Assembly (NCBI GenBank): GCA_014905635.1 | Contig: JABVCE010000012.1 | Span: 620,001 to 684,000, forward strand | DNA: 64,000 nucleotides | Direction of reading: 5' to 3' | Origin: Scenedesmus sp. PABB004 | Lineage: Eukaryota | Shown: piece by piece, positions 107 through 62,286 of the stretch | How the letters are laid out: every line of letters begins with the position of its first letter | Position numbering within the stretch: the stretch's first letter is position 1 | Translations under genes and position numbers: made by a program | The notes under the pieces: model-generated | Told to the model about the DNA's origin: nothing | What the model saw: the letters and a program-made list of their open reading frames with translations, nothing else | Databases searched by the model: none

Positions 107-3100
107 GGCGCTGCGCTTCCCCGGGTCGTGCGTGGCGGTGCTGCTGTACATCGTCGTCGCGGTGACCGCGGCGCCGGACAACCACGTCGGCACGCGCATC
201 TTCATCGCGGGCTTCATGATCGGACCCATGTGGCTCGGCCTCCTCACCGGCGGCGTCGTGGTGCGCGCGCCTCGGCGCGGCGGGCGCGCGGGCAGCGGGC
301 AGCGCCAGCCGCGGCCGAGCGCCGGCGGCGAGCCGCGGCGCCGTGCCGGCGGCGCGCGGCGTGCCGGCCGCGACGCCGCCGCCGCCGGCCGCGCGCCGCC
401 CGCGCCGCGCACAGGGCACGGTCGGCATGCTCGCGCCGAGCGGCGTGGGGCGGCTCGTCGTGCTGTCGACGCTCGGCCCCGCCGCGGTCGTGCCGTTTGC
501 GGTCACGCGCGTCGGCACGGGGCACCTCTACCTCTGGGCCATGGGCATGGTCACCGCGCTCTACGTGGGCATGCCCATAATTGCCGGCTGGCCCGCCCCC
601 ACGCTCGCCGTGTTCTGGATGCGCAGCGTCGTCTGGGTGTTTGCCGCCGCGGGCGTCGCGATGTTTGCCGGCGGCGCGCTCAGCATGGTCGTCGCGCCGT
701 CGCTCGCGTCGCACGCGGTGGGCGCGACGAGCAAGCGGCGCGCGGCGCGCGGCGCGCGGCGTGCGCGGGGCAGCCGCCGCCGCGGCGGCGGCGCCCCGCT
801 GCCCGGCCCGCGCGCGGGCTCACGCCCGCGCACCGCACCGCGCACCGCAGCTGGAGGGCGACGTCGCGGCCGCGCTGCGCGCGCTGGGACACCACCTCGG
901 CGCGACGGCGAGCCACCTGCTGCGCGGCGCGGACGCGCGCGCGCCGCTGCCGGCGCACCTCCAGGGCCTGCACCCGCTCGCGCTCGAGGACGCCGCCGGC
1001 ACGGCGCTCACGCCGGGCGTGCGCGAGCAGGACGGCATGGCCAACGTGCGGCGCCGCGCCGCGCCGCGCCGCGCCGCGCCGCGCCGCGCCGCACCGCGCT
1101 CGGGGCGGGGCCCGCGGGGCTCGCTCGCGCACGCCTCCGCGGCGCCCGAGCGCACGCCCGCGGCCCGCGCCCGCGCCGCCGCGCCCGCGCGCAGGCGAGC
1201 GTGCGTGACATGTACGTCGCGGTCATGGACTGGTTTGAGCACCTCAGCCGCCCGCCGCCGCCCGCCGCGGCGGCGGCGCGGTCCGCCGGCGCGCTGCCCT
1301 GCCTCGCGCGCAGCGACGGCGGCAGCAGCTTCGCGAGCAGCACCGCCGCCAAGAGCACCTTTTACGGCGCCGACGCGGCGGGTGCGCGCCTGGCCTGCCG
1401 CGGCCGGCTGCCTCGGCGCTCGCGCGCCGCTGCGGAAGGCGCCCGCCGTCGCACGCCGCCACGCGCGCGCTGCGCTGACCTGACGTGCCGGCGCCGCCGC
1501 CACCGCCCGCCAGGCCTGGCCGCCGCCGCGGTCGCGGCGGCCGCGGGGGACGTGTCGGACGCGGACGTGGACATCAACGGCGAGCAGTCTGACGACGGCG
1601 GTGAGCCCGGCGGCCGCGGCGGCAGCGGCGCGAGCCTGGGCCCCTTTGCGGCGCGGGCGTCGCGGCCCGGCAGCATCGCGGAGGGCCGGCCCGTCTCGGC
1701 CGGCGCGGGGCTTGGGCTGCGCCTGGCCAGCAGCAGGGAGGCGTCCGCGGGCGTGCGCGACCTGCGGCTGAGCTCGGGCCTGCGCGCCGCGTCGACCGTC
1801 GCCGTGCGCGCCAAGGCGGCCGCCACGGCCACCCGCGCGCCGAGCGACGGCGTCAAGTGGGCGGACAGCGTCGTCGGCGGCGGCGGCGGCGGCGGCGGCC
1901 CGCGCGGCGCGCCGACGCCGGCGCCGGGCATCGCCGCCGCGCGGCAGCTGCTGGCGCACGCGTTCCAGCTGCTTGACGCCGCCGCGTCGGAGCCGGGCTG
2001 GCTGCGCCACGGCGAGCGCCGCTTCGACCGCGCCGCGTGGGCGGCTGTCATCGGCAAGGCCCAGGCGCTCGCGCTGCGGTGCGGCGCCGCGCCCGCGCCC
2101 GCGCCGCCGGCCGCGCCCGCGCCGCGCGCCCACCGACCGCGCCGACCGCGCCCGCGGCCGCGCCCGCGCCCGCGCGCCCACCGTGTCCACCGACCGCGCC
2201 GACCGCGCCGACCGCGCCCGCGCCCGCGCCGCTGGCGCCGCCGCAGGCTCGCGGCGCTGGACCTGGTCCAGCACGAGTACATCGCTGTCATGGACACCAG
2301 CCACTCGTTTGCGATGAGCAGGGACATGGCCAACCTGCTGACGGCCATCTACGCCCACGCCGCGGCCGCGCTCGCGCTGCTCGCGGCCGCGGCGGCCGAC
2401 CGCGCCGGCGGCGCGGCGCGCCGCGACGGCGCCGAGGCGCTGCTGCAGGCGCGGCGGCGGCGGGGGCGCGCGCGCGGCGGCGCGCGCCGGCGCGGGGCGC
2501 GCGCCGACCCGGCCGCCGCCGCCGCCGCCGCGCAGTCGCCGGAGTGGCGGGGCTGCAAGGCGCGGCTGTGGGGCCACGTGCAGGCGGTGCTGCGGGGCTA
2601 CTGGCAGACGATTCACGACGCCACGCCCGACGCGCCGGTGCTCATCCCAAAGGCCTTCAAGGCGCGCCGCGCCCGCGCCGGCGCCGCGCCGGCGCCGCGG
2701 GGCCTGGCGGGGCCGCGCCCGCGCCGGCCCCCCGACGCGCGCGCGCCCGCGCCCGTCGCGCCGCCGCCTCAGGTGCGGCGCTGGATGTTTTTCCAGCTCG
2801 CCACGATGGACTTGGTGGACGCGGTGGACGCGCTCGCGGGTGCCGTGGCGACCGCGACCGCCCGCCCGCCGCGCCGCGCCGCGCTGCGGGGCGCGCTCTG
2901 GCGGCGGCGGCGCGGCGGCGCCGCGGCCGCCGCGGCCGCCGGGGCGGCGGCGGCGGCGGCCGAGCCCGCGCCCAAGGGCCAGCCGCAGACCGGCGGTGGC
3001 GGCGGCGCAGCGCCCGCGGCGTTCGACGTCGAGGCGGCGCCCGCTGCCGAGCGGCGCGCGCCCGTGCCGCCCGCGCCGCCCGCGCCGCCGCCGCCGCCGC

Positions 3101-61700: not shown

Positions 61701-62286
61701 CGCGCGCCTGCGCGTCCGGGTGCAGCTGCTTGCTGAGCTGCCTGAACATCTCCAGGCGCGCCGAGTACTGGCGCACGCCCAGCACCAGCGGCAGGATCTG
61801 CGCGCCGCCGCGGCGGGGTGAGCGCCCGCCACCTGCGCCGCCGGCCGCCCTGCGCCGCCGCCGTGAGTGCCGCCGCCGTGGGCGCCGCAGCCGGCGCGGG
61901 CCGGGGGCGCTGCCGGCGCGCGCGCACCTTGGCGACCTGCGGCAGGCACAGCGCCGATGCCTGCTCGACGACCGCGTGCCAGCAGTCCGGCCCGGCCGCG
62001 TGCTCCGGCAGCGCCAGGCCGTCCAGGAAGCGCCAATAGAGCTTCGGCGACTCGTCAGCCTGCGCGCGCCGCGTGAGCGCCCGTGCGCGGCGCGGGCGCG
62101 CTGCGGCGCCCGGGCGCCCGCGGCACTCTGCGGCGGCGCACGCACCAGGAACTCTGCAGCCTCCAGCACGTACGGCGTGCCCTGCCACCGCGCCCTCAGC
62201 GTCACGCTCGCGCCCTTCTGCGCGCTGGCCGCCGCCAGGGGCGCCGACGCCGCCAGCAGCAGCGCCAGCGCCGCCCAGCGCGCCAT
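52777..62286 (-). CDS. UGGT: UDP-glucose:glycoprotein glucosyltransferase; about 30 exons
   Basis: Signal peptide; [162 protein letters not shown]-terminal RSEL. Confidence 0.97.
53805..53838 (-). repeat. Interstitial plant-type telomere repeat (TTTAGGG)3 plus a degenerate unit and an inverted partial unit, in a UGGT intron
   Basis: gtttaggccttaaccctaaaccctaaaccctaaa. Confidence 0.9.

What the first reader, a model, noticed from the sequence alone, without database searches (positions are those of the whole stretch)
2449..61707. Very high frequency of GC-AG introns with an AG|GCGCG donor
Seen: about 25 introns, roughly a quarter of those I could place, need a GC donor. Conserved motifs force several: CTP synthase LGMQ|VAVIEF (15120), RTVLQ|SVNC (14734), ERHRHR|YEVNP (14543); UGGT 61707, 60780, 60509, 59948, 56717, 55977, 55651, 53856, 53559; transporter 2449, 2662, 3715, 4076, 5196, 5984; SnoaL about 48932, 48486, 48256; Alba 19511; P450 23476; GULO about 10648; GH30 about 37919. 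Every GC donor follows exonic AG, whereas GT donors (mostly GTGCGC/GTGCGG) tolerate other exon ends. Established: GC-AG is about 1% of introns in most plants and animals. Inference: GC pressure converts GT to GC where exonic AG compensates, possibly with altered U1/U6 snRNA or U1C.
Basis: partly seen in the sequence, partly recalled or inferred. Interest (0 to 1): 0.75.

Follow-up and report, generated by a model that had tools for sequence, protein, structure and literature searches.

The report
Abundant GC-AG introns, GC-rich green alga
In this 79%-GC green alga roughly one predicted intron in five or six starts with GC instead of the usual GT, almost always right after an exonic AG, likely because genome-wide GC pressure overrides weak selection at donors that an ordinary spliceosome can still grip by the exon, a situation already reported for several other GC-rich algae.

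Summary
Real. Spliced alignment to homologs with no donor rule picks GC at 3 of 13 CTP-synthase introns (GT-only deletes the CLGMQ motif) and at 8 of 23 introns of Prp8 on another contig. A gene model offering GT, GC, GG and GA equally, run on 664 kb, gives 161 AG|GC of 912 confident introns (17.7%, CI 15-20%); the window is above average (25 of 94). 24 of the 25 claimed donors are recovered; 48486 stays tentative; 57030 is new; 38684 (TCG|GCGAGT, homology-confirmed) breaks the 'always AG' rule. Exonic AG is required even where it is synonymous (Arg-split codons: AGR 29 GC of 64, CGR 0 of 47). U1, U2, U5 and U6 recognition sequences are standard; no introner signal. Likely mechanism: GC pressure against weak selection at +2 where exon pairing to U1/U5 compensates. 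Unexplained: GC donors need +4 C/A, not G. No RNA check was possible. Known precedents: Emiliania 56-65%, Aureococcus 14-40%, Micromonas pusilla 22%; Chlamydomonas and Volvox 2%. The scan noted the same phenomenon in two other genomes. New member of a known kind.

The parts
13558..17739 (-). CTP synthase gene, 13 introns (10 GT, 3 GC)
14900..15120 (-). GC-AG intron [23 protein letters not shown]
   Evidence: homology
14612..14734 (-). GC-AG intron CAG|GCGCGT, RTVLQ|SVNC
   Evidence: homology
14324..14543 (-). GC-AG intron CAG|GCGCGG, phase 2, ERHRH|RYEVNP
   Evidence: homology
52777..62286 (-). UGGT gene, 31 introns (21 GT, 10 GC)
61591..61707 (-). GC-AG intron, UGGT
   Evidence: (GT+GC mode)
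60639..60780 (-). GC-AG intron AAG|GC, UGGT
60386..60509 (-). GC-AG intron, UGGT
59771..59948 (-). GC-AG intron, UGGT
   Evidence: (GT+GC mode)
56869..57030 (-).
56559..56717 (-). GC-AG intron, UGGT
55793..55977 (-). GC-AG intron CAG|GCACGC, UGGT
55508..55651 (-). GC-AG intron, UGGT
53650..53856 (-). GC-AG intron, phase 2, UGGT catalytic domain
53366..53559 (-). GC-AG intron, phase 2, UGGT catalytic domain
38547..38684 (-). Non-AG GC-AG intron TCG|GCGAGT in GH30 gene (RYNI|GG); counter-example to 'always AG'
37812..37919 (-). GC-AG intron, GH30 gene
2449..2535 (+). predicted GC-AG intron, membrane-protein gene
   Evidence: posterior 1.0
2662..2772 (+). predicted GC-AG intron
   Evidence: posterior 1.0
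3715..3871 (+). predicted GC-AG intron
   Evidence: posterior 1.0
4076..4298 (+). predicted GC-AG intron
   Evidence: posterior 1.0
5196..5298 (+). predicted GC-AG intron
   Evidence: posterior 1.0
5984..6095 (+). predicted GC-AG intron
   Evidence: posterior 1.0
10526..10648 (-). predicted GC-AG intron, FAD-binding oxidase gene
19407..19511 (-). predicted GC-AG intron, Alba gene
23334..23476 (-). predicted GC-AG intron GAG|GC, P450 gene
48836..48932 (-). predicted GC-AG intron, SnoaL-like gene
48331..48486 (-). tentative GC-AG intron GAG|GCGCGG, SnoaL-like gene; can be read through in frame
   Evidence: not called by the model; recalled motif spacing only
47994..48256 (-). predicted GC-AG intron, SnoaL-like gene
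   Evidence: posterior 1.0

Best explanation
These are predicted ordinary major-spliceosome introns whose +2 base has likely been pushed from T to C by genome-wide GC pressure wherever the exon end pairs well enough with unchanged U1 and U5 RNAs to make the change only mildly costly. Steps: (1, shown) neutral-like DNA strongly favours C over T. (2, shown) all donors have drifted to G-Y-G-M-G, so ordinary donors already have only 4-5 Watson-Crick pairs with U1. (3, shown as a pattern) an AG|GC donor has the same pairing budget as a GT donor without AG, so a donor can lose either the -2 A or the +2 T but not both; rare non-AG GC donors compensate on the intron side (GCGAG). (4, inferred) this is mutation/gBGC-selection balance, with scaled selection for T of about 2.3-3.3 after AG and at least 4.7-5.2 elsewhere. 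(5, inferred) CAG and AAG tolerate GC better than GAG because C-3 pairs with U1 G11 and A-3 with U5 loop 1; once a donor is GC, the exon-end AG is locked.
For: Homology-forced GC donors in four genes on two contigs; all 8 Prp8 GC donors follow AG. Model: 161 AG|GC, 315 AG|GT, 436 non-AG GT, 16 non-AG GC, 16 GG, 8 GA among 952 confident, de-duplicated introns. Control: after the 181 called AG|GC donors were set to GT, 0 new confident AG|GC calls appeared; spiked non-AG GC donors were recovered 77-89 of 150, so their rarity is not blindness. Synonymous test: phase-2 Arg codons AGR 29 GC of 64, CGR 0 of 47, P=5e-9; AGG:CGG is 64:46 at these junctions against 232:1809 inside exons. U1 pairs: median 5 for both AG|GC and non-AG GT, duplex energy medians -4.5 and -4.7 kcal/mol, AG|GT -6.8. 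GC share by exon end: CAG 122 of 309, AAG 29 of 86, GAG 10 of 78. GT donors show the usual seesaw: +4 A in 23 of 315 after AG, 60 of 352 after other -1 G ends, 49 of 84 without -1 G (compare PMC11732430 section 4). U1 5' end ATACTTACCTG, two identical copies, no variant found; U6 ACAGAGA, U5 loop GCCTTTTAC, U2 GTGTAGTA. +2C binds U1 better than +2A (PMC4383343 passage). Across species the GC-AG share rises with genomic GC (PMC3033335).
Against: No spliced reads and no orthologous introns from relatives, so neither use of the GC donors nor the GT-to-GC direction is observed. Within the genome GC donors do not track local composition (42/120, 43/118, 44/119, 32/119 across intron AT quartiles, P=0.39; GC3 P=0.56); only a small CpG excess (P=0.012). 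U1 pairing does not explain why +4 C is accepted and +4 G is not (146 GC of 396 with +4 C/A, 2 of 60 with +4 G/T; homology set 21 of 21 vs 18 of 26, P=0.006). About half of exon-flanked AG|GCG[CA]G words are not used as donors (157 used, 146 inside exons, 46 inside introns), so other signals must define the site. The selection estimates assume equilibrium. A 79%-GC genome has fewer GC donors than 65%-GC Emiliania (56-65%), so GC content alone does not set the level.
Confidence: 0.68

Rival explanations
1. The spliceosome of this lineage has adapted at protein or RNA-modification level (U1C, Luc7, Prp8, U6 m6A pathway or an intron-body CG-repeat binding factor) to read G-Y-G-C-G positively and tolerate +2 C, so the high share is not only drift on standard machinery.
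For: +4 C is favoured over +4 G beyond background, and more so the weaker the donor: C/G about 5 in AG|GT, 13 in non-AG GT, 68 in AG|GC, against 1.2-3.8 in background DNA; +3 G in 98% of GT donors. U1C has Ala at Thr11 and Ser at Lys22 (read), positions that touch or lie near the 5' splice-site backbone (PMC4383343). PMC3033335 proposed modifications or U1 proteins for Aureococcus and Micromonas.
Against: Ala substitution of Thr11 or Lys22 did not affect yeast growth. Prp8 differs at only 13 of 743 conserved columns, mostly K>R or Q>R type changes (the 88 comparison sequences are mostly distant eukaryotes). METTL16, SNRNP27K and Luc7 families are present. A pyrimidine opposite U6 A43 may simply fit better than G (inference). 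Whether low-GC green algae share the U1C changes was not testable.
Confidence: 0.2
2. GC introns are recent insertions of an introner-type transposon that brings its own GC donor, as known for some Micromonas introner copies.
For: Micromonas introners include GC/AG copies (PMC4540971 passage); GC introns start GCGCG and often end CGCAG.
Against: 6 of 161 GC introns have a similar other intron against 36 of 751 GT introns; no target-site duplication or terminal-repeat excess over shuffles; same length as GT introns, median 132 vs 130. The context rules follow snRNA pairing.
Confidence: 0.05
3. Artefact or retention: assembly errors turned T into C, or the introns are not spliced at these sites.
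For: No RNA run was available for a direct check; part of the count comes from my own gene model, whose first training round used three of the genes later used to check it.
Against: Without these donors essential genes lose conserved motifs; errors would not be confined to AG|G_GMG and absent after synonymous CG; null control gave 0 false AG|GC calls.
Confidence: 0.04
4. The +2 C is edited to U in pre-mRNA before splicing.
For: Nothing direct; it would let standard snRNAs see a GU donor.
Against: Editing would remove the need for exonic AG, yet AG is nearly obligatory; nuclear C-to-U editing at this scale is not known to me in green algae (recalled).
Confidence: 0.02

Closest known systems
Abundant GC-AG introns of Aureococcus anophagefferens (39.6%), Micromonas pusilla (22.2%) and Chlorella NC64A (7.7%), PMC3033335; pelagophytes 14-17%, bioRxiv 10.1101/2024.10.30.620910
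   Same: High genomic GC, a GC-AG share of the same order, canonical AG acceptors, and an unchanged U1 5' end.
   Different: Here a chlorophycean (closest named homologs Tetradesmus, Monoraphidium, Raphidocelis), whose relatives Chlamydomonas and Volvox have 2.0% and 2.4%; intron-rich genes; no introner signal; the context rules (AG requirement at a synonymous site, CAG/AAG over GAG, +4 C/A) were not in the passages I read.
Emiliania huxleyi GC-majority donors (56-65%), PMC4028052
   Same: Attributed to high GC content; acceptors stay AG; ab initio gene models miss them.
   Different: GC is the majority there and GA donors occur (4%); here GC is about 18% and GA/GG are at noise level.
U2-type GC-AG introns of mammals and plants (about 1%), PMC2490688, PMC6310983; AG//GUNNN (U5-class) donors, PMC11732430
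   Same: C at +2 tolerated only with compensation; neutral fixation in a strong context was proposed; exon-side pairing class.
   Different: 15-20 times more frequent; in mammals the rest of the donor moves closer to consensus, whereas here the intron side stays GCGCG with +4 A in only 13 of 161.
Introner elements of Micromonas, PMC4540971
   Same: Some copies use GC/AG.
   Different: No repeat families, target-site duplications or terminal repeats here.

Membership tests
U2-type (major spliceosome) GC-AG introns | GC donor and AG acceptor whose removal restores a conserved reading frame | tested here: met
U2-type (major spliceosome) GC-AG introns | Same acceptor, length and branch-type signal as GT-AG introns of the genome | tested here: met
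   -3 C 98% in all classes; lengths 132 vs 130; YTVAY near the 3' end in 24%, 27%, 30% of the three classes vs 2-4% near the 5' end
U2-type (major spliceosome) GC-AG introns | Donor complementary to the 5' end of U1; U1, U2, U5, U6 present | tested here: met
   (present); median 5 Watson-Crick pairs
U2-type (major spliceosome) GC-AG introns | Junction used in transcripts | not testable with these tools
   no RNA holder was listed
U12-type introns | RTATCCTT donor and CCTTAAC branch site | tested here: not met
   donor profile is GCGCG; consensus quoted in PMC3033335
U12-type introns | U11 snRNA in the genome | tested here: inconclusive
   no match, but the search rang nowhere
Introner elements | Families of near-identical introns at unrelated sites | tested here: not met
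   6 of 161 GC vs 36 of 751 GT with a similar intron
Introner elements | Target-site duplication or terminal inverted repeats | tested here: not met
   observed equals shuffled
Introner elements | Absence at orthologous positions in relatives | tested here: inconclusive
   metagenome scan returned no close relative; the 10 best of 80 loci examined held no comparable introns
Variant-snRNA splicing systems | U1 or U6 with a changed recognition sequence complementary to the odd donor | tested here: not met
   two identical standard U1 copies, no variant by DNA search; U6 ACAGAGA; a weak partial second U6 match was not examined

The most novel reading that the evidence does not exclude
The lineage has re-tuned 5' splice-site reading without changing any snRNA: a protein or modification makes G-Y-G-C-G, with +4 C as a positive determinant, the working donor, so that T at +2 becomes nearly dispensable after AG. 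This would be the protein-level answer to the 'enigma' of GC-donor-rich algae, and the genome would show in tens of thousands of introns how GC pressure and the spliceosome co-evolve.
Probability: 0.15. Interest if true: 0.7.

Novelty: new member of a known kind. Interest (0 to 1): 0.42.

Why it matters
High GC-AG shares in GC-rich algae are published but were called an enigma (PMC3033335). This genome adds a chlorophycean case whose model relatives have about 2%, and it yields quantitative rules that make the question testable: a synonymous-site demonstration that -2 A and +2 T are interchangeable but not both dispensable, a selection estimate in the nearly neutral range, and an unexpected +4 C over G ranking that can be tested with minigenes in Chlamydomonas. 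Practically, GT-only gene finders would mis-predict most multi-exon genes here (extrapolating 1271 predicted introns per 664 kb gives about 75,000 introns, some 13,000 of them GC-AG), and the 19 major non-canonical introns among about 67,700 in the Monoraphidium neglectum annotation may reflect the same blind spot.

Tried and rejected
Orthologous introns: the metagenome scan gave no close relative (best 75% identity; 10 of 80 loci examined). Variant U1 or U6: none found. Introner origin: rejected. An apparent excess of exon-2 GT after GC introns, seen by eye in three genes, was not significant in the sample (59 of 161 vs 90 of 315, P=0.08). Avoidance of cryptic AG|GCGCG inside exons: inconclusive, the Gly control shifted equally. 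+3 A as compensation (16 of 165 vs 2 of 333) was dropped because it matches background once TpA avoidance is allowed for. Local GC dependence: none. EM sharpening as the cause of the +4 rule: rejected with a model that gave GC donors the GT intron profile. Prp8 substitutions: nothing outstanding. U11 search uninformative. SnoaL 48486: PDB, Pfam and Atlas not decisive. Literature: 'GC-AG'+'Sphaeropleales' 0 papers; 'GC-AG introns'+'alga'+'non-canonical' 6; 'GC-AG'+'Chlamydomonas'+'splice site'+'GC content' 6; three of four of 'Scenedesmaceae, intron, splice site, GC donor' 66, none of the 20 listed containing Scenedesmaceae; 'GC-AG'+'GC-biased gene conversion' 3, listing only. The library lacks most subscription journals and bioRxiv supplements were closed, so a genome paper or table reporting this share could exist unseen.
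Full report
Setting. The window is 79% G+C and lies on contig C5 of a 40-Mb assembly, G000. Closest named homologs of two exons are from Tetradesmus, Monoraphidium and Raphidocelis, so the organism is likely a chlorophycean green alga of the Sphaeropleales. No RNA run was listed; everything below rests on DNA and protein homology.

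Checking the observation by homology. I wrote a spliced protein-profile aligner that fixes only the AG acceptor and lets the donor be any dinucleotide. For UGGT (20 of 120 homologs) the any-donor run gives 16 GT, 9 GC and 7 others; the others, and one of the GC calls (60950), fall in poorly conserved stretches. With 31 curated introns (21 GT, 10 GC) the gene translates for 1690 codons without a stop and aligns to Tetradesmus P0006 with no indel at any of the ten GC junctions. As a test outside the window, Prp8 on contig C19 gave, over the well-aligned part (501064-510087; two calls upstream of it dropped because the profile lacks good N-terminal cover), 15 GT and 8 GC of 23, all GC after AG. 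In the GH30 gene 37919 is chosen when GT or GC is allowed, and a further donor, 38684 TCG|GCGAGT, is chosen even with no donor rule; 106 of the RYN[ILVA] motifs among 150 homologs continue GG.

Genome sample. I built a two-strand gene HMM that starts with GT, GC, GG and GA donors at equal weight and one shared profile learned from GT donors, and self-trained it on 664 kb in 15 blocks from seven contigs. Of 1271 predicted introns, 1012 had donor and acceptor posteriors above 0.9, 952 after removing repeats: AG|GC 161, AG|GT 315, non-AG GT 436, non-AG GC 16, GG 16, GA 8. AG|GC share 161 of 912 = 17.7% (Wilson 15.3-20.3); outside the window and Prp8 blocks 113 of 695 = 16.3%; per block 4-23%. The window holds 25 of 94. 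Controls on 14 of the 15 blocks (repeat block B146 left out): setting the 181 called AG|GC donors to GT left 0 confident AG|GC calls; spiked AG|GC donors were recovered 79 of 100, so the true share may be nearer 22%; spiked non-AG GC donors were recovered 77-89 of 150, so the 16-19 seen are an honest low number, 8 of the 19 being GCGAG.

Anatomy of the rule. GC occurs at 161 of 476 AG-ended donors (34%): CAG 122 of 309, AAG 29 of 86, GAG 10 of 78, TAG 0 of 3. The cleanest test uses phase-2 introns that split an arginine codon with a purine third base, where -2 A or C is synonymous: AGR 29 GC of 64, CGR 0 of 47 (P=5e-9); AGG:CGG is 64:46 at such junctions and 232:1809 inside exons. Counting in-register Watson-Crick pairs with the U1 5' end, AG|GC and non-AG GT donors have the same distribution (median 5) and similar duplex energy (-4.5 vs -4.7 kcal/mol, unmodified bases), AG|GT being stronger (-6.8). 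GT donors show the known seesaw between exon and intron side (+4 A 23 of 315, 60 of 352, 49 of 84 as the exon end weakens), described for U5- and U6-class donors in PMC11732430 (outline and sections 4 and 5 read). T/C in G_G contexts is 0.08-0.18 in intron bodies and intergenic DNA, against about 2 at AG donors, which under equilibrium gives scaled selection for T of 2.3-3.3, and at least 4.7-5.2 at non-AG donors; this step is inference.

Machinery. U1: two identical copies beginning ATACTTACCTG, no variant by DNA search, the consensus quoted in PMC3033335. U6 has ACAGAGA, U5 loop 1 GCCTTTTAC, U2 GTGTAGTA; that these three are standard is recalled. METTL16, SNRNP27K and Luc7 families are present. 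[quoted passage not shown] Prp8 deviates at 13 of 743 conserved columns against 88 mostly distant homologs.

What does not fit. GC donors need +4 C or A: 146 of 396 against 2 of 60 with G or T, unchanged when GC donors are forced to use the GT profile, and 21 of 21 against 18 of 26 in the homology set. +4 T would create a competing GT at +3 (inference), but U1 should prefer G to C at +4. The C/G ratio rises from background 1.2-3.8 to 5, 13 and 68 in AG|GT, non-AG GT and AG|GC donors. A pyrimidine opposite U6 A43 may fit better, or a protein may read the motif; this is the opening for the novel case. GC donors do not track local GC. The motif is not sufficient: AG|GCG[CA]G is a donor 157 times and lies unused 146 times in exons and 46 in introns, whereas AG|GTG[CA]G is used 242 times against 39 and 11, and AG|GGG[CA]G 0 against 29 and 43.

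Rivals tested. Introners: no repeat families, duplications or terminal repeats. Artefact: contradicted by context specificity and the null control. Variant snRNA: not found.

Comparison with what is known. PMC3033335 (passages, Discussion, supplement 1): Aureococcus 39.6%, Micromonas pusilla 22.2%, Chlorella 7.7%, Volvox 2.4%, Chlamydomonas 2.0%, with canonical U1 and the origin called an enigma. PMC4028052 (passages): Emiliania 56-65%, ascribed to GC content. bioRxiv 10.1101/2024.10.30.620910 (passages; supplements closed): pelagophytes 14-17%. PMC6310983 (passages and supplement rows): plants 1.2%; Monoraphidium neglectum annotation 19 major non-canonical against 67,727 canonical. PMC2490688 (first half of the text): GT-to-GC conversion in strong contexts in mammals. 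PMC4540971 (passages): some introners are GC/AG. PMC10639083 (passages) and PMC8283771 (listing; term search empty) added nothing. I found no paper on this for Sphaeropleales in the searches. The scan's own notes record abundant GC-AG introns in two other genomes and nothing for this one; I did not test those notes.

Verdict. It works like, and by the tests available is a member of, U2-type GC-AG introns, and repeats a phenomenon known from other GC-rich algae in a new lineage. The quantitative context rules and the +4 C preference are the added value. Interest 0.42.

Noticed in passing
genome sample, all blocks: GT donors are unusually uniform: +3 G 98% and +5 G 96%; consensus G-T-G-[C/A]-G.
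   Followed up: partly
window 38547-38684 (-) and 8 of 19 non-AG GC calls in the sample: A minor class of GC donors without exonic AG, of the form nn|GCGAG, compensated on the intron side.
   Followed up: partly
L052 about 455-561 (-), G000:C21: The METTL16 gene itself appears, by eye, to contain an AG|GCGCGC intron.
   Followed up: no
L049 (G000:C1:4847369) and L050 (G000:C61:9706): Two U1C starts identical for the first 420 bases, both near contig ends: a duplicate or an assembly overlap.
   Followed up: no
window about 3725-3780 (+), 53805-53840 (-), 54300-54325 (-): Telomere-like TTTAGGG runs just inside three introns, two of them GC-AG.
   Followed up: no
window about 6200-7900 (+) and 8000-9600 (-): Two related, near-intronless repeat-protein genes (ankyrin-like by eye, label recalled) with shared upstream sequence in inverted orientation; possibly a mobile element.
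   Followed up: no
window about 45390-46130 and 46830-47560: A direct duplication of about 750 bases of non-coding DNA, seen by eye.
   Followed up: no
window 34700-35146 (-): Intron holding about 300 bases of (TG)n in a gene with a papain-family domain.
   Followed up: no
window about 40830-45070 (-): A long, essentially intronless gene with repeats such as ANIVWALAKL (RAP/OPR-like, label recalled) in an otherwise intron-dense region.
   Followed up: no
G000:C21:100001-140000 (L146-L149): A repeat-rich block; 57 donors of the form GAG|GTGAGA in the sample largely collapsed on de-duplication, suggesting a tandemly repetitive gene here.
   Followed up: no
genome sample: GC donors are rarer among predicted first introns (10 of 161 vs 42 of 315 for AG|GT); may reflect errors in gene starts.
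   Followed up: no
L005 (G000:C46:1126044-1126152, -): The U5 Sm-site region reads ATCTTATCTTTGTG rather than the usual A-U-rich run (recalled).
   Followed up: no
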